Sequence record: KX130863
Origin: Shigella phage SHSML-45
Length of the DNA stretch: 64,000 bases
Direction: 5' to 3' (one strand)
Positions 751 to 38,810 of this stretch are shown here, one piece after another (positions within the stretch are counted from its first letter, which is position 1; every line of letters starts with the position of its first letter). The position numbers and the translations under genes were made by a program. The notes beneath the pieces were generated by a model that was given only the letters and a program-made list of their open reading frames with translations, had not been told where the DNA came from and ran no database searches.

Positions 751-755
751 TATAA

Positions 756-6273: not shown

Positions 6274-6337
6274 AGTTAATTTCTCCTCTTAATAACAATA
6301 TTATAATAGGATTGGAAAATTTTATCAAGAAATTTTT

Positions 6338-6375
6338 ATTTTTCCATAAAGAAAAGGAGGACATAAAGTCCTCCT
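6338..6375 (-). terminator. rho-independent terminator after the tape measure gene
   Basis: Hairpin AGGAGGA-CATAAAG-TCCTCCT (6355-6375) followed on the minus strand by a U-rich tract. Confidence 0.6.
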
Positions 6376-6381
6376 CCAGTA

Positions 6382-9300
6382 TTAAGAATTACCAAGTGAT
6401 TTCAGGGTGGTTCCATTCTCATTAAGAGCCTGTTCCACGGCATCTCTTAAAGCAGTGCTGTTATTCGATGCAAAATCTCTAAAGCTAGCAGCATCCATTG
6501 TGCTAATATTCAGAATGATTGGTCTTCCAGAGGTAGTCTTTGATCCATCGGAAAGCTGATCATTAGGTGTAGCTTTCATAGGAACCATAGGAGTAATTAC
6601 CTCGGTACCGTGCTCACCCATTTGATAACTAACTCCAGGGTACATCATACCGCCCTCAGCACGCGGAACAAATGAGTTGGCATTACCAATACCTTTATCA
6701 CCGCGTAGGTAGGATAGTTCTCCTGAACTAGCTTGCATAGATACATCAACATTTTTCTGTCGCTCACCTAGAGTTAAGTACTGAGTAGTATCTGCCCCAG
6801 AATCCGCAATAGAAGACATGCCAGATGCAGAAGATGCTTGAGCAAGAGCTAGGGCACCTGCCAAACCTGCTGCCACCATTAAAGGAATAGAGAACGGGTA
6901 TGGTACAGCTGTTGCTGCTTGCATTACTGCTACTGCAGTTTGGATGATGATCTGCTTCTTAGCTGCGTCTTGTTGAATCTTCAGCTTTTCAGCTTCCAAC
7001 TTCTTCAACTTAGCTTTAGATGCTTCAGATTTACCATCTCGTTTCTGTTCTGCTGCAATAGCCTGATCAATCGCACTAACTTGTTGGCTAGTACTATATT
7101 GAATCATCGAGGCTACAGTCTGCATACCTGCTGCGATCGTGGAAGTAGTATCTAGAGATCCCTGAGAGAACTGAATCATAGCATTAGTTAAGTTACCCAT
7201 ACTTTGTGCTACTGCAGTTGCTTCAGAATTTAGCTCAGATAGCTTAGAGATTGCCTGATCATAAGAAGCCATTCTATTTCCCATATCAGCAAAATCTTTG
7301 TCTTCCCCGGATAGACCAGTTGTAGGAGTATAAGTAGCTCCAACAGAAGATCCAACAGAAGCTTGCATCTCCGCATTTCTCTGTGCCCTTAAACCTGCTA
7401 GTTGTGCCCTAGTTTCAGCTATCTTTTTATTATATTCCGCTTGTGCTGCAGCATTACCTAATGTTTTCTGCTTTAAGTCTTCATATAATTTTAGCTGTTC
7501 CTGTAAGCGCTCCGCATTTCCCATTAATGGTTTAGTAGTAAATTGTCTTTGCTGTTCTTCCTCTCTACCAGCAGCCATTGAAGCAATCTGATCTTGGCGG
7601 AATTTCCAGATTTCACGTTCAATTTGGGCTTGAGCACGTCTAGACTGTTCCGCCTCTTTCTGTTTATCAGCTTGTTTTGTATACCATTCGTACTTCTCTT
7701 TTTCAACGGTCAATTCAAGATTTAACTGTGCTAGACGATACTGAGTATCTGTCATAGTACGGTTATTTAAGAGAGCTATCTCACGATCTACACCCAGGAT
7801 TTTATCTGTATAATCCTTAACCTTCTTCTGGGCCTCCATACCCTGATTAGTAAGCTTAAGTTTCTCCAGCTGAATTTTTTCAATTTCTTTCTCAACAGCT
7901 TTATTTCCCTGGTTTGTTTGAAGAACACGGCGTAAAGCAGCTTCTTGCTCTTCTAACTGTTGGAGTTCTAAACGCCTACCGGCTTCCTGTGCTTTTTCTT
8001 TATCCTTAGTTTGGTTATATACATCAGCTATCTTCTGTTGAACTGCTAACTGGTTCTTAGTCTCATTACCAGTTAGTTTAACGTACTCAGATAAGGCCTG
8101 AGACGCAGTTTTCATTTCGGACAGAGTGTTGTAGCCTAGATTAAGATTTTTAACGTACTCATCAGCACTCTTACCAGTACCTAGAGATAGAGATTCTATG
8201 TTTTTTATAGCATCTGCTAAAGTAGCACTAGTTTTAGCAGCAGTATCTGTATTCTGAGCAACGTTCTGTATATCATTAGCTAAGTCACTAGCAGTTTTCT
8301 TAGTCTGATTGTACGCTTTCTGCTGCTCAGTTAGTCCTTTTAATACAGTAGAGTTAAAATCGTATACAGCATCAGGATCAGTAGTATCTCTCTGTAGATT
8401 AATTTGCTTCTGAAACTCTGGACTAGCCTTTGCAGCAGCGGCTCCAGCAGCTTGATACGCTGATTTCCAAGCATTGAGATTCTCTGTAGAATCCTCTACT
8501 TCCTTACCAAGTCTAGTTACTTGTAGACCCATAGCTGCAGTTTCTGCTACAAATTGCTTATTGGCCTCCGAAGCACCTGCTGCTGCAAGACCAACAGGAA
8601 TACCTTCACCAACTTGACGTATAGCTAATTTTGTATAGAAATCTGCTTGTTCCATTCGTTTATCAAACTCAGATTTTAGCTTATTACGCTTATCAAGAGA
8701 TTCCTTATACATATCTAGAGCTTTATTATAGCCTTCTTCAGAAGCAGCTAAACTTAAAGCAACAGCACCAACGTTGGTAGGGTCTATCTGTCTATTAGTT
8801 TTTTCTTGAGCTCTAGCTGCTTCAGCAGATACAGAAGCCTGAGAAGTATAAAATACTGTGTTGATAGCATCAATTACTGGCCCTAAGTATTTAGCAGCAG
8901 CCTGCTGAATCTTTCTCAGTGCGGCATCAGCATTAGCGGCAAATTGCTCCCACGGAGTTGCACGTAAAACTTCATCTAAGTAACCAAAACGTTTAGTAGA
9001 CTCTGCTATAACAGCATTAGCATACGCCTGCTGTTTCTGGAAAGTAGTAAGACTATTAACGTTATAAGTTATACCCGTATTAGCAGCATTCAACTGTTTA
9101 ACATAGTCAGCATACGCGTCATTAAGACGGATAGTAACACCAAGTTCATCCAGAAGTTCGATTTCTTGTTTAGATACACCTTTGATTACACGGTTAAGTG
9201 CATCAGTCATATCTACACCAAGAACAGCAGCAGCACGACGAGCTACTAGACCAAATTTATTAAGTTGTTCAGCATCAAAACCGTATGCAGAAGCAGAGGA

Positions 9301-10062
9301 TGCTTGTCTCATAGCTTCTTCAAAGGAAATAGCGTACCCAGCTGCCTCTTGTAGTGACCTAGCTAGGGACTGAACAGGGGTACCTGTCTGAGTACCTACT
9401 ATAACACCAAATTTTTCTAGACGATTTAGCTGGTCACCTAGTTTAAGTTGTTCGAATGCAGATTGCAAAACGAAGATGTTGGAAGCAAGAGCTGCGTACA
9501 TAATAGGTAAACTACCACCTATCTTAGCCATTGCTGCAAAATCACGAGTTGCACCGCGTGCTGAACCAGAAGTATTACCAATAGCCCTAGAAGCTCTACC
9601 AGCAGCACCAGTAGTATCGTTAAAGCCTTTAGTTGTGCCACCTAAAGCTCTATTAGTATCGTATAACCTATCTTGAACTTTCTCTGTTGCAGCTGCAACA
9701 TCATTACCCATTGCTTTAACAGATTTAGAAACTCCGTCGAATCCAATTTCTAGCTTATCTGTTACTTCAATAAGTTGGATAGCCAGGTAATCTAGCTTAT
9801 CACCAATACCATCAATAGATTTAGTGATACCAGCCATACCCCTACTAGCCTGCATTTTAGTAAGACTTTTTGCTGCTCTATCTGCCGCCCTCTCAATGGA
9901 GTATAGAGTTTTGGGCATTTTACCTAACTGCTCATTTGTCAGTTCGGAAGCAGCAGCAGCATTTTCTAACGCATCAGATACGTTTTCAATAGACTTTGCA
10001 GTACGAGTTGCCCCCTTCTGTTTAACGTCTATTAGTAGTTCTCGTATTAGCTTATCAGTCAT
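6382..10062 (-). CDS. tail tape measure protein pb2-like (1226 aa)
   Basis: Very long ORF, Ala/Gln/Lys-rich with extended coiled-coil character (QQ/EE/KK repeats), located between tail tube and Dit genes. Confidence 0.9.
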   Translation of the reverse strand: MTDKLIRELLIDVKQKGATRTAKSIENVSDALENAAAASELTNEQLGKMPKTLYSIERAADRAAKSLTKMQASRGMAGITKSIDGIGDKLDYLAIQLIEVTDKLEIGFDGVSKSVKAMGNDVAAATEKVQDRLYDTNRALGGTTKGFNDTTGAAGRASRAIGNTSGSARGATRDFAAMAKIGGSLPIMYAALASNIFVLQSAFEQLKLGDQLNRLEKFGVIVGTQTGTPVQSLARSLQEAAGYAISFEEAMRQASSASAYGFDAEQLNKFGLVARRAAAVLGVDMTDALNRVIKGVSKQEIELLDELGVTIRLNDAYADYVKQLNAANTGITYNVNSLTTFQKQQAYANAVIAESTKRFGYLDEVLRATPWEQFAANADAALRKIQQAAAKYLGPVIDAINTVFYTSQASVSAEAARAQEKTNRQIDPTNVGAVALSLAASEEGYNKALDMYKESLDKRNKLKSEFDKRMEQADFYTKLAIRQVGEGIPVGLAAAGASEANKQFVAETAAMGLQVTRLGKEVEDSTENLNAWKSAYQAAGAAAAKASPEFQKQINLQRDTTDPDAVYDFNSTVLKGLTEQQKAYNQTKKTASDLANDIQNVAQNTDTAAKTSATLADAIKNIESLSLGTGKSADEYVKNLNLGYNTLSEMKTASQALSEYVKLTGNETKNQLAVQQKIADVYNQTKDKEKAQEAGRRLELQQLEEQEAALRRVLQTNQGNKAVEKEIEKIQLEKLKLTNQGMEAQKKVKDYTDKILGVDREIALLNNRTMTDTQYRLAQLNLELTVEKEKYEWYTKQADKQKEAEQSRRAQAQIEREIWKFRQDQIASMAAGREEEQQRQFTTKPLMGNAERLQEQLKLYEDLKQKTLGNAAAQAEYNKKIAETRAQLAGLRAQRNAEMQASVGSSVGATYTPTTGLSGEDKDFADMGNRMASYDQAISKLSELNSEATAVAQSMGNLTNAMIQFSQGSLDTTSTIAAGMQTVASMIQYSTSQQVSAIDQAIAAEQKRDGKSEASKAKLKKLEAEKLKIQQDAAKKQIIIQTAVAVMQAATAVPYPFSIPLMVAAGLAGALALAQASSASGMSSIADSGADTTQYLTLGERQKNVDVSMQASSGELSYLRGDKGIGNANSFVPRAEGGMMYPGVSYQMGEHGTEVITPMVPMKATPNDQLSDGSKTTSGRPIILNISTMDAASFRDFASNNSTALRDAVEQALNENGTTLKSLGNS

Positions 10063-10074
10063 GTTTTATTTTTC

Positions 10075-10108
10075 CCAATAAAAAAGCTCTGGGCATATCA
10101 CCCAGAGC
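10075..10108 (-). terminator. rho-independent terminator immediately upstream of the tape measure start
   Basis: Hairpin GCTCTGGG-CATATCA-CCCAGAGC (10086-10108) followed on the minus strand by a T-run; shares flanking sequence with the 15074-15097 terminator. Confidence 0.6.
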
Positions 10109-10145
10109 CAAGCCTCATCGTGGAACGCCCCATTGGAGGAAACTT

Positions 10146-10637
10146 TTACCGTGCTCGAGATTTAGCATGTGGCTTAACGTTAGGTATTCTACCGTTTTGC
10201 GGCTTATGCTTCTCAGCACGTTTACGTGCAGCGTCTACAGCTTTAGCATCAAATATATTGATAATGTGTAGAACAAATTCTTTTTCTATAGGATCAGTAA
10301 TCCCATAAATATCAAATAAAACACCTAAAGCAGCCTTGTCTTTACCTATAAAGATAGGGAAGTCACCAGGTATGAAACAGTCAACTAGACTATTATAAAT
10401 ATTCATACTAATAGCTACAATAGGTGGAAAGTCTTCAAGTTCAACAGGCATAGCCTTAGGATCAGGTTCTATACCCATTGACTCACAAAGTATTAAATAT
10501 TGTTGTTTAGTCATTTTAGATGCTGAGCTTTTAATACACTTATCGGCAAAATCAGCAACAGCATCTAGTAGTTCTTTACGCTTTTGAGCTACGAAAAGTG
10601 TCGAGGTGGAACACTGTCTGGTTGATCCAAGAATCAA
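10146..10637 (-). CDS. hypothetical protein, tail assembly chaperone position (163 aa; true start may be internal)
   Basis: ORF between tail tube and tape measure genes; overlaps upstream ORF by 62 nt in a different frame. Confidence 0.4.
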   Translation of the reverse strand: MILGSTRQCSTSTLFVAQKRKELLDAVADFADKCIKSSASKMTKQQYLILCESMGIEPDPKAMPVELEDFPPIVAISMNIYNSLVDCFIPGDFPIFIGKDKAALGVLFDIYGITDPIEKEFVLHIINIFDAKAVDAARKRAEKHKPQNGRIPNVKPHAKSRAR

Positions 10638-10995
10638 ACGCAGCAGAGTTCTGCATAAGCATTACAGCATTATCATGACTAAATGGAACTTCAGTAGTAG
10701 GATCAGCATCTGTTTCAATCAGCATCAGCTTTTCAACGTCGCCTACAGTCAAACCAGTCCAACCTTTAATTGCAGCATCAACGAAAGCTTCAATAAACTT
10801 ATCGTCATCCTGTACTTGTATCAGCGTACCATTAACCCATTCGTCACGTTTAGCAGAAGAAATAACACGTTTAGAGGTAGCACGAGACATATAGTTAAGT
10901 TCTAGCTTAAAGTTCGGCATACCTGGGTATGAAAGAGTAATAGTGCGGGTATCAAGAGTAATATCTTTTAAATTAATCATTTTTAATTTCTCCAA
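10576..10995 (-). CDS. hypothetical protein, tail assembly chaperone position (139 aa)
   Basis: ORF between tail tube and tape measure genes, canonical chaperone location in siphophages. Confidence 0.45.
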   Translation of the reverse strand: MEKLKMINLKDITLDTRTITLSYPGMPNFKLELNYMSRATSKRVISSAKRDEWVNGTLIQVQDDDKFIEAFVDAAIKGWTGLTVGDVEKLMLIETDADPTTEVPFSHDNAVMLMQNSAAFDSWINQTVFHLDTFRSSKA

Positions 10996-11875
10996 AGAAA
11001 TCTATTCTCACGGGGTCTGAAGAAGCAGTAGGTATAATATCCCACTCAACTTTATACACATCTGAGAAATCTAGGCGTTTTGTAATACGTGCTAAAGGGA
11101 ATGTTATAGAAACATACTTATTTTTAATAATTAGTGGAGTTCTTGTTTCAGGGTCTAGATTCAAGGACTTATCTCCTACCAATCTCTTAACGTAATAGAA
11201 AGCTAGTGTTGCGGAAGCATTCATTTCATTGACATAAGCTCGTTTATTAGTATAAACTTTGTTTATATCAAATATACTTCTATCTTCTCTCCAAGAACAT
11301 TGTTGTTGGAAGGACATAGATGCTGAAATTAATGCCGGCAGCGGCGCGCTATTAGTATACACAGCTGGAGGACTATACGGAAGTACTTCACCTTGTGTAA
11401 TTGTATATCCATCACGGAAAGTAGATACTTCAGAGAATTTTCCAGACTCAATACCAACATTTAGAATTGGTACACTCTTATCTAGAGAAAAATCAACTGT
11501 TGATACATAACAGTTTTCGAAATAAATACAGCTATTATTATAATTAATAATATACATATTGAACATAATAGGTTCAATATTGGGAGTATTTCTTGGCAAA
11601 AATAAAGAATTTCCCTCGCGCGTGAATCCCATCCAATCAAAGAAATTAGATTCAATAAGCGTAGTACTGAAATTTATTGCCAATGAAATAGATGAAGGAT
11701 CTTGAGCATTAATAATAGAGTCTGCATAGTTAGTACGATTATGGATAGTACGTCTAAGAGTCTTAAACTCTTGAAAAGACGTACTAGCATCATAATTAGA
11801 GAGGGCATCGAAATGATACCCCCTACCATCGTACTCAATAACTATTTTAGACTCTCGCATGAGAGAATAAAACAT
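10973..11875 (-). CDS. tail-associated hypothetical protein (300 aa)
   Basis: ORF immediately downstream of the tail tube gene within the tail module. Confidence 0.4.
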   Translation of the reverse strand: MFYSLMRESKIVIEYDGRGYHFDALSNYDASTSFQEFKTLRRTIHNRTNYADSIINAQDPSSISLAINFSTTLIESNFFDWMGFTREGNSLFLPRNTPNIEPIMFNMYIINYNNSCIYFENCYVSTVDFSLDKSVPILNVGIESGKFSEVSTFRDGYTITQGEVLPYSPPAVYTNSAPLPALISASMSFQQQCSWREDRSIFDINKVYTNKRAYVNEMNASATLAFYYVKRLVGDKSLNLDPETRTPLIIKNKYVSITFPLARITKRLDFSDVYKVEWDIIPTASSDPVRIDFFGEIKND

Positions 11876-11879
11876 TTAA

Positions 11880-13274
11880 TTAACCACCTGTTACAGTAAT
11901 CTGTTTAGTACCTTTAACTCCAGAACCATCCTTAGCAGTAGCTTCTACAGTTACTTCACCAGTTTTAGTGGTGTCCGCAGTTAATAGGCCAGATTCTGGA
12001 TCAATTGTAGCTGCATCACCGGCAGTGATAGCCCAAGTAACTTCCTTATTCTTTGCGGAAGAAGGAGTAACTTCAACACTCATTTGAAGAGTAGCCGAGT
12101 TATTTACTGTAGTAACATCACCAGCAGATTTAACAGTGATTGCGGTTACAGCATTAGTAGCACCATCACCATTAACAATCAAGTTATTAATAGTTGTTTT
12201 GGTATATTTACTAGAGAAGCCTAAGTAACCTTCATCACCAGCATCCAGATCAGATGGAATAGCTTTAAACTCTACTGAAGTACCCAGTACATCATCAGTT
12301 TCAATAGTAGGAATATTAACGTGTGCTTGTTTAGCTACCAGAATAGCCGCAGGACGTTCTTCATCGTACTCACCACCAAGTACTAGAGCAATTTCGAAGC
12401 GGTTAACTACCTTCAGAGTTTTGATAAGATCTTTATACAGCTCCATAGAACCAAGAGATTTATCATTCAGATAAGCAGTTAATGAGCCAGTTAGTTCAAA
12501 TGCGCCAGTAAATGAACCGATCGGAATATTTACACGGGACATAATATTCGGGGTTAGATACGTGATGTTATTATTAATGGTGAAAGTACCACCAGTAATA
12601 GGTATGTCATAAGACTTATTGGTATCCATGTCCTTGATCTTCAAGATCGTTAGTTTGTTCTTAATATAAGAACCCTGGATAGTCATATAAGTTTCATCAT
12701 CAATACCTATTTCATCCGGATCAAATGGTTGCGCATCCAGAGGAATAAGCTGATTACCATTACCAGACCAAGTTACACGACCAATATCTTCGATATCAAC
12801 GTTAACCTCTGCCTGATTAATCTGACAGGAATCAATATAACTCCATGCTTTATCAGTCAGAATATAAATATGTAACATTGCTAACTCATGATAGGAGTTA
12901 TCTTTGAAGTTAACCATGAAGTTAGTTGTGTTATTGTGTGCCCCTGTATTACCTTCTAAGTTAATAGCTTTACCGCTAGAAAGTGCATGCCATAACATAT
13001 AGTCAGGAACAATTTGTTTGCTAGTAGTTTTATCTTTATACGGTAGGATGTAAGTAGAAAAACTCCACTCAGCTGCGTTTAAAGAGTCGTTAAAACGTTT
13101 AGAACCACGAGTTGGACGCGGACCAGCTTCATTAACAGTAATATCTGTTGAGTTACTGTCCTGACCCCAAGAAATATCATCCTGAACTAGAATCTCTTGC
13201 GTGTTGGTCTTATTATGACCAGTCTTAACCGTAGACACGAAGATTCGAGTATTACGTAATAGTTGTAAAGACAT
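11880..13274 (-). CDS. tail tube protein pb6-like (464 aa) with C-terminal Ig-like domain
   Basis: 464 aa, same length as T5 pb6; C-terminus (KEVTWAITAGDAATIDPESGLLTADTTKTGEVTVEATAKDGSG) looks like a bacterial Ig-like (Big_2-type) domain. Confidence 0.75.
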   Translation of the reverse strand: MSLQLLRNTRIFVSTVKTGHNKTNTQEILVQDDISWGQDSNSTDITVNEAGPRPTRGSKRFNDSLNAAEWSFSTYILPYKDKTTSKQIVPDYMLWHALSSGKAINLEGNTGAHNNTTNFMVNFKDNSYHELAMLHIYILTDKAWSYIDSCQINQAEVNVDIEDIGRVTWSGNGNQLIPLDAQPFDPDEIGIDDETYMTIQGSYIKNKLTILKIKDMDTNKSYDIPITGGTFTINNNITYLTPNIMSRVNIPIGSFTGAFELTGSLTAYLNDKSLGSMELYKDLIKTLKVVNRFEIALVLGGEYDEERPAAILVAKQAHVNIPTIETDDVLGTSVEFKAIPSDLDAGDEGYLGFSSKYTKTTINNLIVNGDGATNAVTAITVKSAGDVTTVNNSATLQMSVEVTPSSAKNKEVTWAITAGDAATIDPESGLLTADTTKTGEVTVEATAKDGSGVKGTKQITVTGG

Positions 13275-20139: not shown

Positions 20140-21456
20140 TTATTTACCACGGGAAATAGAGTAAATTCCATAGCGGAGCGCATCACAAAGGTGAGAGTTA
20201 GCATCATGACGTGGTTTTTCACGTGATAATTTCTCTTCACCCTCTTGGAAATCCCACTTATAGTTCTGCAATGCATGGATTAATGAGGAACATGAAGCAT
20301 CTACAATAATCTTGCCCTGCTGGAATAGTGCTTGCAAGCATGCTAGACCATCTAGGACAGATTTTTTAGCTGGAGCTGATGCAATTTCATGCTCATAAGC
20401 TAAGTCCTGTCGGAACTGGGCTGCTGCAGAGTCAACAAAAATACGATCAACTTTATAACGATCTATACAGTGCTGAATATAAGCAGCATGCTGAGCTGTA
20501 GTTTTCTCCGCCTGCTGGTACTCTTCTAGTACATAGTAAGTATCCGTGTCGTAATGATATTTAATAGTAAGAACTGCTGTAGGATCACGATAACCAACGT
20601 CAATACCAAGCAACGTTTCAAATGCTTCATCATCTTTAAAGAAGTGACGCATACCTTTGAGATCTTTAACATGATCTATAGCATTAAAGGTATCAAATAT
20701 CTGTCCTTCGAATACAGAGAAGTCAGCCTCGTATTCTTGGCGGAAGTAGTTTTTACTAACTGTACGACGTGCTTCCTCAATGTCATTCAGATCAGCACGT
20801 GGGTTATCACGATATGTACCATGAATAGATACCCAGTTAGGTAGTGTCTCGTTAAATCCTTTCTCATAAAACTCTTTGAACCAGTTACCACCACGAGGGG
20901 TAGAAATGAAAAGAGCCTTAGAGTTTGGTTTATCTAGGGTTGGACGAAGCTGAATATCGAATGCAGCACCACCAACGTCAGAGATTGCGGCTTCATCAAA
21001 GATGATGAAATCATAGGAACGACCAACTGCGGAGTCAGCCTGAGCAGCAGAAGCTAATTTGAACAGAGAACCGTTGGCCAGCTCAATTTCTTTATCTTTG
21101 GCATTCTCACGCTCAGTCTGCAATCCATATTTTTTAATTAGACCACGAATCTGTGACCAACCGATGTTTGCTAGTGAGTAGTTAGGTGCAACTACCAGCA
21201 CTTTTACATTAGGTTCTAGCAGTTTTAGGAACCCAAGTGTATATGCGATAAATGACTTACCTACACGACGTGATACACAAGCAGTTACGAAACGATGTCT
21301 AGGGTCTTCTAGGGCATTAATAATTGCTATTTGAGGACCATTAGGTGTAATACCTTCTTGTGCTAGTATTCCCGAAACAGGTAGACGAAAGAAACGCTTA
21401 TCTATTCCGAAATCAATAACATCTACTGTGTTAACATAGGGTCTTGACACTTCCAT
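20140..21456 (-). CDS. terminase large subunit (438 aa)
   Basis: Walker A-like VSRRVGKSF and Walker B-like FIIFDEAA motifs; nuclease-like C-terminal half; 438 aa as T5 TerL. Confidence 0.85.
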   Translation of the reverse strand: MEVSRPYVNTVDVIDFGIDKRFFRLPVSGILAQEGITPNGPQIAIINALEDPRHRFVTACVSRRVGKSFIAYTLGFLKLLEPNVKVLVVAPNYSLANIGWSQIRGLIKKYGLQTERENAKDKEIELANGSLFKLASAAQADSAVGRSYDFIIFDEAAISDVGGAAFDIQLRPTLDKPNSKALFISTPRGGNWFKEFYEKGFNETLPNWVSIHGTYRDNPRADLNDIEEARRTVSKNYFRQEYEADFSVFEGQIFDTFNAIDHVKDLKGMRHFFKDDEAFETLLGIDVGYRDPTAVLTIKYHYDTDTYYVLEEYQQAEKTTAQHAAYIQHCIDRYKVDRIFVDSAAAQFRQDLAYEHEIASAPAKKSVLDGLACLQALFQQGKIIVDASCSSLIHALQNYKWDFQEGEEKLSREKPRHDANSHLCDALRYGIYSISRGK

Positions 21457-21938
21457 TACTTCTTACCTCCAGTAGCTAGGGAAGTAATTAAGTCCATGTA
21501 GTTTTGATCCCCAGCTCCAGCAATAATATTATTCTGGATGTTAGTCTGATTAGCAGGAGCTCGAACGGCAGCTTTAGCTTTTTCTAACTCCACCATCATT
21601 TTCATTTCTTCCATCTTCATTTTGTGAGCTTTCCAGAGAATATCCATAATATCCTGGTCAGATCCCATACCCGTTTCTTCAAGTTCTTCCAGCTTACGCT
21701 TGATAACCTCATCAAGAACTCCAAACAACTTGTCACGGTTGCGGAACCCACTTTCCATAAAGATATCATTGAGGTAGTTCTTAACTTCCCCACGATTCAT
21801 AATATCCCTGAATGCAATTTCCGACATACCAAGACTACGGGCAGCCATGCGTACATCGCTACCGCACTGTAAATAAGCCTCGATTACATCCATGCCTTCA
21901 GGGGACATAAGATCTGGTACTAATACATCATTTGCCAT
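21456..21938 (-). CDS. terminase small subunit-like protein (160 aa)
   Basis: Small ORF directly upstream of and start-stop coupled to the large terminase gene; N-terminal HTH-like segment. Confidence 0.55.
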
Positions 21939-24942: not shown

Positions 24943-25482
24943 ATGGTGAAGAATAATCTAAATATACAGGAAATACAAGAAGTATTTGCTTATGATCCCG
25001 AAACTGGAGTTTTTACCTGGAAAAGAGGCAATCGTAAGGGTAAAGAAGCAGGTACTTTAAATAGGGGATATAGGCAGCTTAAGTATCGAGGGTTTAAAGC
25101 TTATGCACATCAAGTAGCTTTTGTTATTATGGAGAATAGATGGCCAGCGGAATGTGTAGACCACATAGATAGGAATAAACTAAATAATAGATGGTCAAAT
25201 TTAAGAGAGGCTTCAATTACAGAGAATAATCATAATGGCAGAATCTCAAGAGCATCATCAGGCTATCTAAATGTTACATGGCATAAAGAACTTCAGAAGT
25301 GGATGGTAAGATTACATGATAAACAGGGGCTGATAAGGGGTACTACTAAGTACTTTCCCTATAGCGGATTAGAAGATGCCGTAAATTATGCAAATTTACT
25401 AAGAAGGACATTTCATGGTGACTTTGCAATACAGGAGATGTTCAAAGGAAGTATACCAGACGTTGCCCAATTAAACAGTTAA
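24943..25482 (+). CDS. HNH homing endonuclease (179 aa)
   Basis: Motif AHQVAFVIMENRWPAECVDHIDRNKLNNRWSNLREAS typical of phage HNH homing endonucleases; paralogs throughout the window. Confidence 0.75.
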   Translation: MVKNNLNIQEIQEVFAYDPETGVFTWKRGNRKGKEAGTLNRGYRQLKYRGFKAYAHQVAFVIMENRWPAECVDHIDRNKLNNRWSNLREASITENNHNGRISRASSGYLNVTWHKELQKWMVRLHDKQGLIRGTTKYFPYSGLEDAVNYANLLRRTFHGDFAIQEMFKGSIPDVAQLNS

Positions 25483-25529
25483 TTAGCGCTAAAATGACTT
25501 TTGCCAAATTCTTTGGATTACGTACGCGT

Positions 25530-25550
25530 GGGTGGGTGCAGTGGGTTGGG
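25530..25550 (+). other. G-quadruplex-type motif
   Basis: Four GGG tracts with short loops (GGGTGGGTGCAGTGGGTTGGG) in an intergenic region. Confidence 0.4.
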
Positions 25551-26886: not shown

Positions 26887-27396
26887 TTAATAAGGGATAT
26901 TAAATTCTTTACACTTTGATTTAACCCATTCTAAAAGAATAGATAAATCATAATTGCCTTTTGAAACATATTTATTTGTTATAGGGTTTTTAATTTTTGC
27001 CCTGTAATATTCTCCCGCTATGGGATCAACTTTATCAAGATAAATATATTTCGGTAGTTTATTACGCCTTTTATAATCACTCTTATTTGTCATATTAACA
27101 GCATGAGTAACTAGGCGTAAATTATTTATATCGTTGTTAACGGGGTAAGAAATTATTTTATGATCTATATCTAAATCAGGGTTAATTTCTTTATTAAATA
27201 AAACCCAAATTAAACGATGAGCTTTATATAATTCACCATTAATCATTACATCATAATAGCCTGTCTGATTTAATGTTCCCGCTACACTTCCAGCTTTCAC
27301 ACCGGGCTTACTTATTTTCCATCGTAAAAATGATGGGCTAGATTCATCATAATAAACATTCTCGTTAACTTCATTAAAATCTATTTCTTTTGCCAT
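26887..27396 (-). CDS. HNH homing endonuclease (169 aa)
   Basis: Motif YKAHRLIWVLFNKEINPDLDIDHKI...NLRLVTHAVN shared with other HNH paralogs. Confidence 0.7.
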   Translation of the reverse strand: MAKEIDFNEVNENVYYDESSPSFLRWKISKPGVKAGSVAGTLNQTGYYDVMINGELYKAHRLIWVLFNKEINPDLDIDHKIISYPVNNDINNLRLVTHAVNMTNKSDYKRRNKLPKYIYLDKVDPIAGEYYRAKIKNPITNKYVSKGNYDLSILLEWVKSKCKEFNIPY

Positions 27397-29517: not shown

Positions 29518-29934
29518 TTATTCACCTGCGGCTTGTTTTACTTCATCGGCAACGCCTAACAGTTGCGCCACGGCGTCCAGTGTTTCCAATTTTGCACTTT
29601 CCAGTGATGCCAGATCGTCAACGTCTTTGATAATGCCTGAATCGATGGCATGTTTTGCAATAACACGCACATAATGCGCTTTACGGATGGAACTACCACC
29701 GCCAACTTTACGCGGCTTATCGCTTTTCTGATACGCTTTCGCGCTGGTCAATTTTGAGCGAACAGACACGGGGGAGGCCGCGCCAACTGTTTTCGCAATT
29801 TCTTTCAGGCCGTCGCTGTTGGCGAACTCTAATCCGTTTTCATTAATTAGCTGTTGATACATGGTAACAGCCTGCTGGGTGTTTTCTTCATTCCAAGCAA
29901 ATTTTGCGGTTTTTTCGGTTTTAACGTTAGCCAT
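29518..29934 (-). CDS. A2-like pre-early protein (138 aa)
   Basis: Size and position immediately upstream of the A1-like gene match T5 A2; basic central region. Weak assignment. Confidence 0.4.
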   Translation of the reverse strand: MANVKTEKTAKFAWNEENTQQAVTMYQQLINENGLEFANSDGLKEIAKTVGAASPVSVRSKLTSAKAYQKSDKPRKVGGGSSIRKAHYVRVIAKHAIDSGIIKDVDDLASLESAKLETLDAVAQLLGVADEVKQAAGE

Positions 29935-30896: not shown

Positions 30897-31238
30897 TTAC
30901 GCCTTTCTATAGTCCCCCTTATTTTGGTTGTTTTCGGCTTGAGTTACTAACCGTAAGTTATCAATAAAATTATTACTAGGGTTACGATCAATATGATCAA
31001 TTACTAGTTTGCTATCTATTTTATAGTTAAATAATAACCACACAATACGATGCGCTAGGTAACGCTCTTTATTGAGCTGTACAGACCAATAGCCATCCTT
31101 TCTTTTAGTGCCTGCTACCCCATGAAAGGCGCAACCGGGGCGGGATACTTTCCACCGTAGGCAACTGGGACTAGTTTCATCATAGTAAAGATTATCTAGC
31201 ACGGTTTCTAAATCAATATCTTTTGTTAACTCAATCAT
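30897..31238 (-). CDS. HNH homing endonuclease (113 aa)
   Basis: Motif AHRIVWLLFNYKIDSKLVIDHIDRNPSNNFIDNLRLVTQAEN. Confidence 0.7.
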   Translation of the reverse strand: MIELTKDIDLETVLDNLYYDETSPSCLRWKVSRPGCAFHGVAGTKRKDGYWSVQLNKERYLAHRIVWLLFNYKIDSKLVIDHIDRNPSNNFIDNLRLVTQAENNQNKGDYRKA

Positions 31239-31835: not shown

Positions 31836-31965
31836 GTGAGAAACACTATCATTTAAGTTATCCACAAGTTTATTAACAGCACTTTTTGACTTGACACGAT
31901 AGGCGGCGATATAAGGACTTTTACACAGACTTATCCACAGGTTATCCTACTGTATAAATATACAG
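31836..31965. repeat. left arm of ~130-bp imperfect inverted repeat, containing two DnaA boxes
   Basis: TTATCCACA at 31858-31866 and 31931-31939; reverse complement of 35225-35354 matches with few mismatches over the outer ~60 bp and inner ~42 bp. Confidence 0.7.
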
Positions 31966-32231
31966 GGTAAAAAGGTAGTGTTAACAACTGCAATCAATTT
32001 TAAGCGGCCTAAATCGCATTCTAACGAGCAAAACGCTGTAGGGTAATATTAAAGTAAAGCCTTCACCAGTCGCCCTGGTGGCTCCGCCGTGTTTTGCTCT
32101 TTACTATACCGCTGCGCAGTTAGCATAAAACTAGGCGTTAGGCAAGGAAAATAAAAAGGTAAAATAAACGTTGCCCCTAGAAAGAAAATACCTTTATCAT
32201 TCTCCTACCGATTAACGAGGGAGGCCAACAA

Positions 32232-34837: not shown

Positions 34838-35077
34838 ATGGCTGTAAGAATTTTACGATATGTAGAACGTAAAGAAACCGATATTATGCAACATCATTTA
34901 ACTGATGGGCAATACGCGCAATTTTTAGAAATGCAGAAAAGCGGAGCTGATACAGCAACGCTAGGAGCGTGGATCAACTCAGTTTCAACGTGTACGCATT
35001 TTGATTCATACGGGTATACGCCAGCCGAAACCGTCCAGATCTTTGACGACTACGAGAAAGAATACATAACAGACTAA
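34838..35077 (+). CDS. hypothetical protein (79 aa)
   Basis: ORF with GGAG RBS; last gene before the right inverted-repeat arm. Confidence 0.45.
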   Translation: MAVRILRYVERKETDIMQHHLTDGQYAQFLEMQKSGADTATLGAWINSVSTCTHFDSYGYTPAETVQIFDDYEKEYITD

Positions 35078-35224
35078 TAATAACGGGGCGCAACTATCGG
35101 CCCCGCTTTTTCTGGCCTTCCTCAAATTTCCCCTTATTAAAGTACCTCCTCCAAAATTAAAACGCTTAGAATGCGTTTGAGAGCGTTTTAGACCTATATT
35201 AGAGTTATTCACTACGTAGGAATA

Positions 35225-35354
35225 CTGTATAAATATACAGTAGGATAACCTGTGGATAAGTCTGTTGAAAACGCCTCAAAATCGCTAGGGTTTTGTCAAG
35301 TCAAATCGTGCTGTTAATAAACCTGTGGATAACTTAAATAACAGTGTTTCTCAC
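35225..35354. repeat. right arm of ~130-bp imperfect inverted repeat, containing two DnaA boxes
   Basis: TGTGGATAA at 35251-35259 and 35325-35333; inverted partner of 31836-31965. Confidence 0.7.
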
Positions 35355-35510
35355 TTCCCTTTCTAAATGCGAATCATTCTCAGTATGTGACTCATTCGTA
35401 TTCAACTCTGTAAATGATAACCGTTCTCATTCCCCTTTCTAAACGCGAATCATTATCATTCGCATTCAACTTCTCAAATGCGAATCAATCTCATTATCAT
35501 TCGCATTCAG
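35345..35510. repeat. imperfect tandem direct repeats
   Basis: Recurring units CCCTTTCTAAA(T/C)GCGAATCATT and TCATTCGCATTCA read directly in the sequence. Confidence 0.6.
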
Positions 35511-35515
35511 GCGAG

Positions 35516-35531
35516 CAGGGCAATTGCCCTG
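35516..35531. repeat. perfect 16-bp palindrome CAGGGCAATTGCCCTG
   Basis: Self-complementary sequence immediately before the first GTGCAAATCCGA copy. Confidence 0.7.
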
Positions 35532-35566
35532 CGCTTTTGTGCAAATCCGACATTTGCCCCCATGGA

Positions 35567-36106
35567 TTACGCGTGGGCGTGTATGTGCAAATCCGACCCA
35601 TTTTTGGTAGTGTGCAAATCCGACCCTAAAATTTCATCCCTCCATTTTACTAGAAATTCTAGATCATATGAACACTTAGACTGAGTACCATTACTAGTAG
35701 GAACATAAGCCCGGTAATAATCACCCTTTGAGGTAGTTCTAGCAACACGAATATATTTTGGAAGATTGGTTGTTTTACTGTTGGTATTTTTGCGATTTCT
35801 AGCATTTTTATAGTCTGGTATTTGTCTTAGATTCTCAGGAGAATTATTAGTGGGATCCTGATCTATATGATCTACCTGCAACTCGGGATCAATACTGCCG
35901 TTATGCAGGCAGAAAACAATCCGAGAAACTGCTAGGGTTCCCACCCCAGATACAAAGACCACATAAGACTTCCTACCTTTTCCGTCGTCCCTTAAAGTGC
36001 CTGTATGTTTTCTTTTAGGTAATCTACTCAGCCCACTGGGACTTGATGGGTCAATAAAAAATAAGTCTTTCATTTGTGCATATTCGATAGGTATATATCT
36101 TGACAT
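35567..36106 (-). CDS. HNH homing endonuclease (about 179 aa from internal start)
   Basis: Motif LAVSRIVFCLHNGSIDPELQVDHIDQDPTNNSPENLR; GGAGG RBS before ATG at 36106; the track ORF extends to 36160. Confidence 0.65.
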   Translation of the reverse strand: MSRYIPIEYAQMKDLFFIDPSSPSGLSRLPKRKHTGTLRDDGKGRKSYVVFVSGVGTLAVSRIVFCLHNGSIDPELQVDHIDQDPTNNSPENLRQIPDYKNARNRKNTNSKTTNLPKYIRVARTTSKGDYYRAYVPTSNGTQSKCSYDLEFLVKWRDEILGSDLHTTKNGSDLHIHAHA

Positions 36107-36180
36107 AATAAAATTCCTCCTATGAAGTAATATTATAACAAAATTTTCGAAAGTGTGCAAGTGAAATTTTTATATTTGAA

Positions 36181-36207
36181 AATAACCGCCCTCCCTATAA
36201 CCGCCCT
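36181..36207 (+). repeat. direct repeat AATAAC(C/T)GCCCTCCCTATAACCGCCCT, copy 1
   Basis: Near-identical 27-bp sequence recurs at 36706-36732; each copy is followed by a GTGCAAATCCGA motif. Confidence 0.65.
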
Positions 36208-36705
36208 ATTCGAATCCTGTGGGATATGTGCAAATCCGACACGGTTTTTCTAGGATTAAGATGTGCGAATCCAATGAAATTTTTGTGACTTCGATGAGAG
36301 GGTGTGTGATTGTGTGAGTTTGGGGAGAAGTTGAGAGAGCGAGAGAAATTTAGAGGCTAGAAGGATGTGGGCGCAGGATTGGTGCGGAGCACCTGATTTG
36401 CGGGGATTTTGGGGAAGAGTTGAGATAATTTGGGAAGATTTGAGATAGGTGCAGAAAAAGTAAAATTTTATTAGCAAAATGGGGCAAAATAGCTTGACAA
36501 GTGGAAATTCTTGTGGATCTAAAAACTCAGGCAATCATGGGCCTTCGGCCCGAAATAATGCTGCTATTTTCGGGAGATTATATGTTCCTAAAAACTTAGG
36601 CATTTGTGCAAATCCGACCAGTTTTTAAACTCCTGTCAGTGTGCAAATCCGATAGCAATTTCCAGAAATGTGTTTTGGAAAAATGTCTTCTAGAAATAAC
36701 TGCCC

Positions 36706-36732
36706 TCCCTATAACCGCCCTGTATAGAAAAC
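36706..36732 (+). repeat. direct repeat AATAAC(C/T)GCCCTCCCTATAACCGCCCT, copy 2
   Basis: Matches 36181-36207 with one mismatch. Confidence 0.65.
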
Positions 36733-37234
36733 CGGCCTAAGATATGTGACGTTGGTGAGAAACTGCCCTAGAATGCGTGCAAATCCGATGAATATTTTTG
36801 TGTGATCTCTAGAATTTGTGCTTATCAATTTCCTAGAAACTTAGGAGTCTAGAAGAAAGTGTTGTGCCATCCTAGCAGATGAGCGGCAACCGGTGTATCA
36901 TCTTGAACGTTAATTTATCTATTCAACAGTATTAGTTTTTATATAAGTATAAGATCCCCAGGGTTCTCATATAGAGCTTTGCCCCCACCAGAAGGTCTCG
37001 TGATGTTTCTAGTAATCTTTATTAAATTACCTGTTGACTTGTCCTGTCGCTCCGTAACCTACGCTACAAGTCAGTAATTTAAGATTCCTGAACCACCACA
37101 CCTTCTGTGTGGCAACTCTAAATGGTTAATTCTATTAACTCATAGAGTTATGATAACATACATTTAGCTATCTGTCAACGAGAGTTTGTATTTGAGTCTC
37201 GGTACAGGTATTGTGCACCGAGACATGCAGAGTA

Positions 37235-38119
37235 CTATAATAATTCTTGGTATGCTTTCTGATACGCCTCAGTATCTGTAGGTGTATCTTTTGCTAACGC
37301 AATTAGTTCATCCGTTATCTGAATATTCGTATTATAACGTTGGTGGAACTCGTCTGGAATTTCTAGATATCTATTTATGAATGCTGCAGCAAGCGGTGTA
37401 ACTAACCCAATTTCTAGAGATAACTTAACTTGTTTCTCATAAATTAAATATTGAGAATCAGACGGTATTGGTGGGGTTACATCAATTTTTTCTGGTTCTT
37501 TTTCTGGTAGCAATGGATTGTTATACAATGCTTCATCTGGAAGCACAGATTTACGCTCTTTAAATATATAAGTTTCTAGATCAGATGCTTTAGACCCTGA
37601 ATACACAGCAAAAACGCTAGCTTTACCTTGAGATGCCCTAACTGGTAAGTAACTAGTAGGGTAGCTCCTTAATGCATCGTGGAATGGACTTCCTGAGTAT
37701 TTGTATGTATCCCCATAGAGATCATCAATATTCATTCGTTCATCTTCAAAGATATGGAAAGAGCTAAATGATGGGATAGTAAAGTATTCCATCTGTAATC
37801 CATAAACTAAGAAACGATGTGCGTATGCACTGATTTTTAAGACTGTAAATGCTTTCTCACCTTCTTTATAGGAATTGCCTTTTGAAGTAACTTGGTAACG
37901 TTTACAAAACATCTCTACTAGACGTTTCTCATTAATACCAAGAGTGGAGTACAGTCGTCCATTTAATCCTATAAGTGCATCGAACATAAATGCTAGTTTA
38001 TCTTTTTCTTCTTGGGATAGTTCTGGAAATGGCAATACTTTGGCATTAGGAACACTATTGTTCTCTTTAGGTTTTGTTTTACCAGCATTTTGTCTTAGTT
38101 TATCTTTAAAGTTATACAT
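37235..38119 (-). CDS. hypothetical protein (294 aa)
   Basis: First long minus-strand ORF after the repeat region; no recognised motif. Confidence 0.55.
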   Translation of the reverse strand: MYNFKDKLRQNAGKTKPKENNSVPNAKVLPFPELSQEEKDKLAFMFDALIGLNGRLYSTLGINEKRLVEMFCKRYQVTSKGNSYKEGEKAFTVLKISAYAHRFLVYGLQMEYFTIPSFSSFHIFEDERMNIDDLYGDTYKYSGSPFHDALRSYPTSYLPVRASQGKASVFAVYSGSKASDLETYIFKERKSVLPDEALYNNPLLPEKEPEKIDVTPPIPSDSQYLIYEKQVKLSLEIGLVTPLAAAFINRYLEIPDEFHQRYNTNIQITDELIALAKDTPTDTEAYQKAYQELL

Positions 38120-38198: not shown

Positions 38199-38810
38199 TT
38201 AATCCTTTTTACTCTCATTAATAACAGCCCCCAATGCTTCCATAATTGCATCTTCTAGACTTCCATGTTTATCAGGATTACTAAAATGAATAGTATAAAC
38301 AGAATTCCTAGAAACTCCAGCATCCGCAGGTGCTACGCTTCGCATATCAGATTCAAAAGCTTCTTGGGTATGTTGCAGCTGTACAGAAGGGCCGTAATCT
38401 TCACCAAACTTATATGACTGTGTGTTACTTACCACACCCCCACAAGGAACATTGTGCATATCCGACATTAATCTTTTATCAGAATTATTTAACATTGCAA
38501 TTGGCCCAGACTGCCATGGATCTCTAATAGTCACTGGAGTACTAGGGCGGTTCACCTCAGTCTTCACAAGTTTGTACCCTGCATCGATTAGTGCATTAAT
38601 CAGGTTATCCGCCGGGATGCGAGCCGTACCAAAAATCTTACGAGCATCTTCGAGCTTACCTTCAAGATCTTTACATGCTCTAAGGTCAGTGTGTGCAAAT
38701 GTTAGCTTCATAGATTTGAATTGTACAGTAGCAGTTAAATCTTTAAAGCTATAATCCCATGTGTTCAGTTCATGGTCTGGTACTACTTGAATAGGTTGTT
38801 GTGTAAACAT
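38199..38810 (-). CDS. hypothetical protein (203 aa)
   Basis: ORF start-stop coupled to the downstream small membrane protein genes. Confidence 0.5.
   Translation of the reverse strand: MFTQQPIQVVPDHELNTWDYSFKDLTATVQFKSMKLTFAHTDLRACKDLEGKLEDARKIFGTARIPADNLINALIDAGYKLVKTEVNRPSTPVTIRDPWQSGPIAMLNNSDKRLMSDMHNVPCGGVVSNTQSYKFGEDYGPSVQLQHTQEAFESDMRSVAPADAGVSRNSVYTIHFSNPDKHGSLEDAIMEALGAVINESKKD

What the first reader, a model, noticed from the sequence alone, without database searches (positions are those of the whole stretch)
35539..36790. Eight same-orientation GTGCAAATCCGA motifs surrounding an HNH endonuclease gene
A 12-nt motif, each copy followed by a T-rich run, recurs eight times in 1.25 kb. 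Three copies sit at the 3-prime end of the HNH gene (35567-36106) and five upstream of it, alongside a 27-bp direct repeat (36181 and 36706). The spacing is irregular and there are no spacer-like unique inserts, so this is not a CRISPR array. It looks like a set of binding sites for a sequence-specific protein, or a repeated promoter or terminator element, into which a homing endonuclease gene has inserted.
Basis: seen in the sequence. Interest (0 to 1): 0.6.

Follow-up and report, generated by a model that had tools for sequence, protein, structure and literature searches.

The report
T5 phage terminal-repeat "DRD" repeats
The repeated 12-base motif is real, but it is the already catalogued "direct repeat D" array at the inner edge of the long terminal repeat of T5-like phages, here interrupted by a homing-endonuclease gene; what it does is still untested.

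Summary
GTGCAAATCCGA occurs 7 times exactly, plus one degenerate copy at 36263, all on the + strand between 35539 and 36788. No exact copy appeared in 100 shuffles.

The window is a T5-like phage, 99.8% identical to Salmonella phage Shivani. The motif is "direct repeat D" (DRD), annotated as copies 1-10 in the T5 GenBank record and discussed by Davison (2020). It lies in the non-coding "injection stop signal" region. Five copies lie inside the terminal repeat, whose right end maps to window 36519. Three lie just outside it, and a tenth lies at 38454.

An HNH cassette (about 35627-36209) has replaced copy 4.

I found the same 13-mer, in the same layout, in Klebsiella, Serratia, Pectobacterium and Vibrio relatives whose proteins are only 33-46% identical. 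It is therefore a selected protein-binding site. It is not a CRISPR array, a promoter or a terminator.

The protein that binds it is unknown. My best guess (about 0.35) is the pre-early protein A2, a predicted Myb-like helix-turn-helix protein whose recognition helix is conserved across the family. It would load A1-A2 at the boundary between first-step and second-step DNA transfer.

Rivals are a packaging or terminus signal, a host-factor roadblock, and origin iterons.

Novelty: already known.

The parts
35539..35550 (+). DRD copy 1 (exact). It follows the palJ hairpin and the CCCTGCGC nick consensus.
   Evidence: ortholog of T5 9672-9686
35585..35596 (+). DRD copy 2 (exact), inside the 3' end of the HNH ORF
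35612..35623 (+). DRD copy 3 (exact), inside the 3' end of the HNH ORF. The left junction of the HNH insertion lies just after it.
35627..36209 (.). Inserted HNH cassette (approximate limits). It replaces about 75-80 bp that hold DRD copy 4 in T5 and Kenya-K20.
   Evidence: alignment A1
35567..36106 (-). HNH homing endonuclease gene (179 aa). Its last 19 codons are read from native DRD3/DRD2 sequence.
   Evidence: Pfam PF13392, E 1.4e-12; translation; annotated as an HNH homing endonuclease in Shivani
36228..36239 (+). DRD copy 5 (exact)
36263..36274 (+). DRD copy 6 (degenerate, GTGCGAATCCAA)
36290..36460 (+). Purine-rich spacer holding T5 'direct repeat A' copies 2 and 3, between DRD clusters A and B
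   Evidence: (D4)
36519..36519 (.). Right end of the terminal repeat (last base). It corresponds to Shivani 11123 and T5 10139, and lies 245 nt after copy 6 and 87 nt before copy 7.
   Evidence: the same terminus is seen in 7 T5-like IMG/VR contigs ending at the T5-type terminus, plus My1 and IME260
36606..36617 (+). DRD copy 7 (exact), outside the terminal repeat
36641..36652 (+). DRD copy 8 (exact)
36777..36788 (+). DRD copy 9 (exact)
38454..38465 (+). DRD copy 10 (GTGCATATCCGA), inside the ORF019-like gene on the - strand
   Evidence: T5 annotates 'direct repeat D copy 10' at 12073-12086. Slocum has a distal exact copy in a different gene and reading frame.
36180..36207 (+). Extra copy of the 28-nt element (two ATAACCGCCCT sub-repeats) at the right edge of the HNH insertion
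36694..36721 (+). Native copy of the 28-nt ATAACCGCCCT element. It is also present in T5, Spivey, Slocum and My1.
35515..35534 (+). palJ hairpin (terminator-like) overlapping the nick consensus CCCTGCGC (T5 major nick 1, 7.9%)
35223..35332 (.). IRD'/IRC' block upstream of the array. It holds a LexA-box-like palindrome (35223-35242) and two exact DnaA boxes (35251, 35324, - strand).
   Evidence: Davison 2020
29518..29934 (-). A2 gene, the candidate reader of the DRD motif (inference)
21456..21938 (-). Putative small terminase subunit, the rival candidate reader

Best explanation
The motif copies are the 'direct repeat D' (DRD) array of a T5-like phage (family Demerecviridae). They lie in the non-coding 'injection stop signal / Repeat Region 3' segment at the inner (right) edge of the long terminal repeat.

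Shown here:
- They are orthologous, copy for copy, to T5 DRD 1-3 and 5-10.
- They form two clusters on either side of the right end of the terminal repeat.
- An HNH homing-endonuclease cassette has replaced copy 4.
- The roughly 15-bp asymmetric unit is kept exactly across genera and subfamilies while the surrounding DNA diverges. It therefore behaves as a selected binding site.

Inferred mechanism: the copies work like iterons, that is, same-orientation sites for a sequence-specific DNA-binding protein that builds a multi-protein complex on this stretch.

The most likely reader is the pre-early protein A2. A2 is a DNA-binding dimer needed, with A1, for second-step DNA transfer.
- Its predicted N-terminal Myb/homeodomain-like helix-turn-helix would read the GTGCRAATCCGAC core.
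- Its conserved basic linker (PRKVGGGSS-RKAHY) would contact the T-run that follows.
- A2 would thereby place the membrane-associated A1-A2 complex on the first DNA that has to move when transfer restarts, and on the matching copy near the right genome end.

Sub-probabilities: it is the known DRD array, about 0.97. It is a protein-binding iteron array, about 0.75.
For: Identity:
- The window region is 99.8% identical to Shivani 9804-11804.
- The T5 record annotates 'direct repeat D' copies 1-9 at the positions where the motif matches and copy 10 at 12073.
- The window aligns copy for copy with T5.
- Davison 2020 lists 'nine DRD repeats' in Repeat Region 3.

Restriction to this place:
- There are 7 exact copies against 0 expected.
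- In T5 1-6500 and 12001-62000, the only match with 1 mismatch or fewer is copy 10.
- Paired motifs in IMG/VR occur in contigs of 96-128 kb, the size of T5-like genomes, plus one unrelated 11.8-kb contig that is a chance duplication.

Selection:
- Klebsiella phage Spivey has 9 copies, and Serratia phage Slocum has 6 plus a distal one.
- Pectobacterium phage My1 and Vibrio phage Rocket24 also carry arrays.
- Rocket24's A1 is only 33% identical and its A2 41%.
- The longest words shared with Rocket24 are the DRD copies, palindrome D and a DnaA box.

Layout:
- The annotated terminal-repeat end lies between the clusters in T5, Shivani, MM-2, Slocum and My1.
- Seven T5-like IMG/VR contigs end at the T5-type terminus about 256-258 nt after the last cluster-A copy, My1 ends 410 nt after it, and IME260 169 nt after it.

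- Davison 2020 cites A2 as a purified DNA-binding dimer that binds A1 and is needed for second-step transfer.
- The AlphaFold2 model has mean pLDDT 84, with three N-terminal helices, a flexible basic linker and a helical C-terminal domain.
- In helix 3, R59, K61 and L62 are invariant in 23 homologs, and VRSKL is kept in the Vibrio phage.
- The rival small terminase has a variable helix 3: SEIAFRDIM versus PVAEVEAQL in Rocket24 and TEVQCRMML in a Pectobacterium phage that carries the same motif.
- Phages with an A1 homolog but no reported A2 (KASIA; RHEph03, A2 not checked) lack the motif in the parts searched.
Against: - No binding data exist for any protein on this motif. The link to A2 rests on location, fold prediction and conservation only.
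- A2 and the motif are both family-wide traits, so their co-occurrence discriminates little.
- A2 is reported as a dimer, yet the site is not palindromic.
- The A2 model does not explain why the terminal-repeat end falls so regularly between the two clusters. A role in packaging or end processing would explain it.
- The first copy starts about 50 bp to the right of the estimated shear point (T5 9618). Cluster A may therefore not be in the cytoplasm during the pause.
- No copy lies near the pre-early promoters.
- Copy number in cluster A varies: 3 in MM-2, 5 here, 6 in T5. Individual copies are therefore dispensable.
- Exact conservation from E. coli phages to Vibrio phages matches the behaviour of the neighbouring DnaA boxes. 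That would also fit a conserved host protein.
Confidence: 0.6

Rival explanations
1. Packaging or terminus signal. The two DRD clusters mark the place where the right end of the terminal repeat is cut from concatemers. They would be bound by the terminase small subunit or another maturation factor, as repeat clusters flank the cut in phage P1 pac and as R sites make up lambda cosB. The left end of T5 DNA enters the cell first, so the right end is probably packaged first (inference from 'last in, first out'). That would make this the packaging initiation site.
For: - The terminal-repeat end lies in the gap between clusters A and B in T5, Shivani, MM-2, Slocum and My1.
- Ten linear genome records end at that same place.
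- The local context GGGGCAAAA..TTGACAAG, then about 24-28 nt, then the end, is shared by three lineages.
- Shewanella phage KASIA has long terminal repeats but no A2, and it carries four same-orientation 11-mers (CTGCACCCNAY) 150-280 bp inside its repeat end.
Against: - The predicted recognition helix of the small terminase (residues 40-47) is not conserved among phages that carry the identical motif.
- No DRD copy lies near the left end of the repeat, at window 25538.
- Two records do not fit: in Kenya-K20 the annotated end falls between copies 1 and 2, and in Vibrio phage Rocket24 it falls before the whole array.
- Copy 10, about 1.7 kb away, has no obvious role in cutting.
Confidence: 0.22
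2. Host-factor roadblock. The DRD copies are sites for a conserved host DNA-binding protein already present in the cell. Together with the DnaA boxes and the LexA-like box nearby, they would form the injection stop signal itself.
For: - The pause needs no phage protein synthesis (established knowledge; summarised in Davison 2020).
- The motif is as invariant across phages of Escherichia, Klebsiella, Serratia, Pectobacterium and Vibrio as the adjacent DnaA boxes are.
- The same region holds two exact DnaA boxes and a 19/20 match to the SOS-box consensus.
Against: - I could not match the motif to any host regulator's site that I know of. That comparison was from memory only; no host genome was available to scan.
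- The array lies to the right of the estimated shear point. Proteins bound inside the cell would favour DNA entry rather than block it.
- Three copies plus copy 10 lie beyond the terminal repeat.
Confidence: 0.13
3. Origin-type iterons. Direct repeats next to DnaA boxes and an A/T-rich, strand-biased stretch could be a replication origin or an initiator-loading site, as in plasmid and lambda origins.
For: - The layout is DnaA-box pairs, then same-orientation repeats, then a purine-rich tract.
- Davison notes the likeness to oriC.
- The reverse complement of the GTGCGAATCC variant (GGATTCGCAC) resembles the herpesvirus UL9 box (GTTCGCAC), which I recall from memory. T5 encodes a UL9-like 'replication origin binding protein'.
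Against: - Davison 2020 cites mapping that places T5 origins near the middle of the genome.
- No initiator gene lies next to the array.
- The UL9 likeness is a 6-7 of 8 match recalled from memory, not a test.
Confidence: 0.05
4. Repeated promoter or terminator elements, or a non-functional relic such as decayed tRNA T-arm sequence.
For: - Each copy is followed by a T-run.
- GTGCRAATCC differs from the tRNA T-arm GTTCRAATCC by one base. The 2-mismatch hits in T5 at 17193 and 21511 read GTTCAAATCC and fall at tRNA-gene ends.
Against: - The unit has no stem before the T-run and no -35/-10 match.
- There is no Rfam hit.
- Exact conservation across subfamilies rules out a decaying relic.
Confidence: 0.03

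Closest known systems
T5 'direct repeat D' (DRD copies 1-10), in GenBank AY587007 and in 'Repeat Region 3' of Davison 2020 (bioRxiv 10.1101/866236)
   Same: Same motif, same order, same neighbours (IRD'/IRC' DnaA boxes, palJ and nick 1, direct repeat A, terminal-repeat end, ORF018/019). The window aligns with it copy for copy.
   Different: Copy 4 is replaced by an HNH cassette. Copy 6 carries two changes and copy 10 carries one. There is an extra copy of the 28-nt ATAACCGCCCT element.
Phage P1 pac site (hexamer clusters on both sides of the cut) and lambda cosB R sites, from established knowledge
   Same: Short same-family repeats are clustered on both sides of, or next to, a genome-end cleavage site.
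   Different: Here the gap is about 340 bp, and the cut is not centred in it. The units are 13-15 bp with no Dam sites. The small terminase helix does not co-vary with the motif. Binding is untested.
Iterons of plasmid and lambda replication origins
   Same: Same-orientation repeats with irregular spacing lie close to DnaA boxes.
   Different: The units are shorter (13-15 bp against 17-22 bp). There is no adjacent initiator gene. Davison 2020 cites mapping of T5 origins elsewhere.
T7 SRL/SRR short-repeat arrays next to the terminal repeat (recalled from Dunn and Studier 1983)
   Same: Arrays of short repeats of unknown function lie at the edge of a direct terminal repeat.
   Different: The T7 arrays are tandem heptamer-based repeats at both edges. 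Here the copies are dispersed 13-mers at one edge only.
Polar barrier sites read by Myb-like proteins (for example Reb1-Ter)
   Different: There is no evidence here for any barrier function.

Membership tests
T5-type DRD array (Demerecviridae terminal-repeat / iss region) | Consensus TGTGCRAATCCGAC, all copies in one orientation | tested here: met
T5-type DRD array (Demerecviridae terminal-repeat / iss region) | Position between the IRD'/IRC' DnaA-box block and the first early genes (ORF018/019 homologs), with copy-for-copy alignment to T5 | tested here: met
T5-type DRD array (Demerecviridae terminal-repeat / iss region) | The array straddles the right end of the long terminal repeat | tested here: met
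   By homology to annotated ends in Shivani and T5 and to record termini. The window's own ends cannot be read, because it comes from a one-repeat assembly.
T5-type DRD array (Demerecviridae terminal-repeat / iss region) | Distal copy 10 inside the ORF019 homolog | tested here: met
   38454, 1 mismatch
CRISPR array | Regularly spaced repeats of 24-48 nt separated by unique spacers of similar length | tested here: not met
   Unit of 12-15 nt; spacings 46, 27, 616, 35, 343, 35 and 136 nt
Terminase recognition site (pac / cosB type) | Repeats next to the genome-end cleavage site | tested here: met
Terminase recognition site (pac / cosB type) | Bound by the small terminase subunit | not testable with these tools
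   Indirect test only: the predicted recognition helix of the small terminase varies while the motif does not. This speaks against membership.
Replication-origin iterons | Direct repeats with DnaA boxes and an adjacent initiator gene, at a mapped origin | tested here: inconclusive
   DnaA boxes lie nearby. There is no initiator gene next to the array. Davison 2020 cites origins mapped elsewhere.
Intrinsic terminator / sigma-70 promoter | G+C-rich hairpin plus T-run, or -35/-10 hexamers, at each copy | tested here: not met
   the only terminator-like hairpin on the + strand (35515-35532) precedes copy 1
HNH homing endonuclease (the inserted gene) | HNH_3 domain, and presence/absence polymorphism between close relatives | tested here: met
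   PF13392, E 1.4e-12; absent from T5, Kenya-K20 and MM-2

The most novel reading that the evidence does not exclude
The DRD array, rather than (or together with) the DnaA-box inverted repeats, is the cis-acting control element of T5 two-step DNA transfer. It would be a family-wide loading platform, conserved from E. coli phages to Vibrio phages, read by the Myb-like helix-turn-helix of A2. Through it the A1-A2 complex would restart transfer, or process and join the terminal repeats.
Probability: 0.3. Interest if true: 0.6.

Novelty: already known. Interest (0 to 1): 0.3.

Why it matters
How T5 stops DNA injection at 8% and restarts it has been open since the 1960s. The cis-acting region is known, but none of its many repeats has an assigned partner.

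The repeat itself is not new. The comparative results here narrow the experiments:
- The 13-mer is as invariant across the family as the DnaA boxes are.
- It brackets the end of the terminal repeat.
- A2 has a conserved DNA-reading helix, whereas the small terminase does not.

A gel shift of A2 on a DRD oligonucleotide is a one-day test of a concrete model.

Tried and rejected
- Rfam scan of 34900-37400: only a sub-threshold PrrF hit (23 bits against a gathering score of 90).
- Promoter and terminator scan: nothing at the repeat units.
- Nick-site hypothesis: T5 nicks 1-3 share CCCTGCGC, but only nick 1 is followed by a DRD copy.
- IMG/VR scan for three GTGCAAAT words: swamped by unrelated tandem repeats and uninformative.
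- L032, an 11.8-kb contig with two copies: a 43-bp tandem duplication inside an unrelated gene, so chance.
- Conservation within Tequintavirus: the whole non-coding region is conserved (DRD columns 93%, other columns 89%). No footprint shows at that depth; only distant relatives show it.
- Phages with an A1 homolog outside the family (RHEph03, KASIA): no motif, so they cannot separate A2 from other readers.
- Davison 2015 (Bacteriophage 5:e1086500) is not held in the library. Wang et al. 2005 and Heusterspreute et al. 1987 could not be read.
- Matches to IHF, CRP, CytR, FadR, Cra, MarA, matS and sigma-54 sites were considered from memory and rejected as poor or inconsistent between copies.

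Full report
**1. The observation**

The 12-mer GTGCAAATCCGA occurs exactly seven times in the 64-kb window. All copies are on the + strand, at 35539, 35585, 35612, 36228, 36606, 36641 and 36777. None occurred in 100 dinucleotide-preserving shuffles.

With up to two mismatches, further + strand copies appear at 36263 (GTGCGAATCCAA), 36076 and 38454. That is justified, because 36263 aligns with T5 copy 6.

A frequency matrix from 218 distinct array copies shows a unit of about 15 bp, T-GTGCRAATCCGA-Y-A. It is followed by a T-run at +18 to +20, where T is 65-73%.

The HNH ORF (35567-36106, - strand) has an HNH_3 domain (E 1.4e-12). Its last 19 codons run through copies 3 and 2 and read GSDLH twice.

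The '27-bp repeat' is 28 nt, at 36180-36207 and 36694-36721.

**2. What the window is**

The region is 99.8% identical to Salmonella phage Shivani 9804-11804 and matches 528 T5-like phage records.

In Shivani the terminal repeat is annotated as 1-11123, which maps its right end to window 36519. The left end maps to window 25538. Terminase, portal and head genes lie to the left of that. The window therefore comes from an assembly that holds one copy of the repeat.

**3. What the motif is**

The T5 record AY587007 annotates 'direct repeat D' copies 1-9 exactly where the motif matches. It annotates copy 10 at 12073-12086, inside ORF019.

[quoted passage not shown] This is the untranslated injection-stop-signal region, which overruns the terminal repeat by 270 bp. 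He assigns the repeats no function.

The window aligns with T5 copy for copy. The feature is therefore already known and named.

**4. The HNH insertion**

Relative to T5 and Kenya-K20, about 583 bp (roughly 35627-36209) replace about 75-80 bp that include copy 4.

The cassette brings the HNH gene, a promoter-like site (36159-36132) and a second copy of the 28-nt ATAACCGCCCT element.

MM-2 shows a separate deletion of copies 2-4. Copy number in cluster A is therefore flexible.

**5. Comparative evidence**

The same 13-mer, in the same orientation and layout, is present in four distant relatives.

| Phage | Host genus |
|---|---|
| Spivey | Klebsiella |
| Slocum | Serratia |
| My1 | Pectobacterium |
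| Rocket24 | Vibrio |

Rocket24's proteins are distant from the window's: A1 33%, A2 41%, small terminase 46% and large terminase 59% identical. The longest words shared between the window's non-coding region and Rocket24 are the DRD copies, palindrome D and a DnaA box.

Within Tequintavirus the whole region is conserved (DRD columns 93%, other columns 89%). No footprint shows at that depth.

Paired motifs in IMG/VR occur in contigs of 96-128 kb, plus one unrelated 11.8-kb contig that is a chance duplication. In T5 1-6500 and 12001-62000 the only copy is copy 10.

Slocum has a distal exact copy in a different gene and reading frame. This argues that copy 10 is kept at the DNA level.

**6. Layout**

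The order is:

1. LexA-like palindrome and DnaA-box pairs (35223-35332).
2. AAATGCGAATCATT-type repeats.
3. The palJ hairpin with the nick consensus CCCTGCGC.
4. Cluster A, copies 1-6.
5. A purine-rich tract.
6. GGGGCAAAA..TTGACAAG, then about 24-28 nt, then the terminal-repeat end.
7. Cluster B, copies 7-9.
8. The early genes, with copy 10 about 1.7 kb further on.

The annotated repeat end lies between the clusters in T5, Shivani, MM-2, Slocum and My1. Seven T5-like IMG/VR contigs, plus My1 and Klebsiella phage IME260, end there too.

Two records differ. In Kenya-K20 the annotated end falls between copies 1 and 2. In Rocket24 it falls before the array.

**7. Mechanism**

No experiment bears on this, so what follows is inference.

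An asymmetric unit, one orientation, irregular spacing (15-46 nt within clusters) and exact conservation point to a protein-binding iteron array. Promoter, terminator, RNA-family and CRISPR readings fail.

I compared two phage candidates.

*A2 (window 29518-29934, - strand)*
- Davison 2020 cites it as a DNA-binding dimer that binds A1 and is required for second-step transfer.
- Its model (pLDDT 84) has an N-terminal three-helix domain.
- Helix 3 (..SVRSKL..) has invariant R59, K61 and L62 and is kept in the Vibrio phage.
- A conserved basic linker follows. It could reach the T-run (inference).

*Small terminase (window 21456-21938, - strand)*
- It has a predicted helix-turn-helix at residues 29-47, though model confidence is lower (mean pLDDT 60, about 75-80 in the N-terminal domain).
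- Its third helix is among the most variable parts of the protein, in phages that share the identical motif.

The regular position of the repeat end between the clusters still favours a packaging or end-processing role. The DnaA-box-like invariance still leaves room for a host factor.

My estimates are:

| Reading | Probability |
|---|---|
| Packaging or terminus signal | about 0.22 |
| Host factor | about 0.13 |
| Origin iterons | about 0.05 |
| Promoter, terminator or relic | about 0.03 |

The remainder is unassigned.

**8. Verdict**

The feature is already known (T5 DRD). Its function remains open.

Interest is modest. The repeat has been annotated since 2005. The family-wide invariance, the A2-versus-terminase comparison and the LexA-like box do, however, give concrete experiments on the two-step injection problem.

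Noticed in passing
window 35223-35242 and 31948-31967: TACTGTATAAATATACAGTA (T5 'palindrome D') matches the LexA SOS-box consensus TACTGTATATATATACAGTA at 19 of 20 positions. A second copy, with CTGT-N8-ACAG intact, lies in the other inverted repeat. Both sit next to exact DnaA boxes, and the palindrome is also kept (twice) in Vibrio phage Rocket24. Davison 2020 does not mention LexA or SOS.
   Followed up: partly
window 25480-25537 compared with 35527-35580: The DNA just left of the terminal repeat's left end (25538) reads GCGC..TTTGCC..GGATTACG..CGCGTGGG. This resembles the nick-1 / DRD1-2 segment. T5 nicks 1 and 2 share CCCTGCGC plus GGATTACG 28-29 nt after the CCCTGCGC motif. The terminal-repeat end annotated for Kenya-K20, whose authors determined termini with PhageTerm, falls right after the second segment.
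   Followed up: partly
window 36470-36560: A conserved TTGACAAG lies 24-28 nt before the terminal-repeat end in T5, Slocum and My1. A conserved GGGCC-TTCG-GGCCC hairpin follows at 36539-36551, just after the end.
   Followed up: no
window 37178-37150 (- strand): A strong sigma-70-like promoter (TTGACA, 17 nt, TATCAT, with a TG extension; 11 of 12 matches) points leftward into the conserved non-coding stretch 36800-37140. No gene is annotated there.
   Followed up: no
This 11-mer is itself conserved in Klebsiella, Serratia and Pectobacterium relatives. The extra copy in the window sits at the right edge of the HNH insertion, which suggests it was carried in with the cassette.
   Followed up: partly
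window 35567-35625: The HNH ORF does not end at the insertion junction. It reads on through native DRD3 and DRD2, giving a tail with GSDLH twice. Copy 10 likewise encodes SDMH in the ORF019-like gene.
   Followed up: yes
DRD motif; T5 L050 17193 and 21511: GTGCRAATCC differs by one base from the tRNA T-arm GTTCRAATCC, with the same A/G variation. From memory, T5 HNH nickases cut within tRNA genes, so the DRD copies might serve as homing targets. This was not tested.
   Followed up: no
L053 1-110 and L054 (Vibrio phage Rocket24): An 8-bp-period tandem array (CTTCTAGA / CATCTATC, about 12 units) lies between the DnaA boxes and the DRD array. The record's terminal repeat ends exactly at it.
   Followed up: no
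L175 6634-6758 (Shewanella phage KASIA): Four same-orientation CTGCACCCNAY 11-mers lie 150-280 bp inside the right end of a 6912-bp terminal repeat. This phage has no A2 homolog.
   Followed up: no
window 35364-35510: The AAATGCGAATCATT(A/C)TCATTCGCATTC repeats contain AATCATTATC, the 3' half of the Fur-box consensus. Over the full 19 bp the match is weak (5 mismatches).
   Followed up: partly
window 24943-25482 (+), 26887-27396 (-), 30897-31238 (-): Further HNH-type ORFs lie in and beside the terminal repeat. 26887-27396 has an HNH_3 domain. The other two show HNH-like sequence patterns (..DHIDRN..) by eye only.
   Followed up: partly
L055 11531-13042 (Rhizobium phage RHEph03): The A1 homolog of this T7-like phage lies in the replication module, between the helicase and ligase genes. 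The KASIA paper reports the same placement there. This suggests that A1 is a general DNA-metabolism enzyme recruited for DNA transfer in T5.
   Followed up: no
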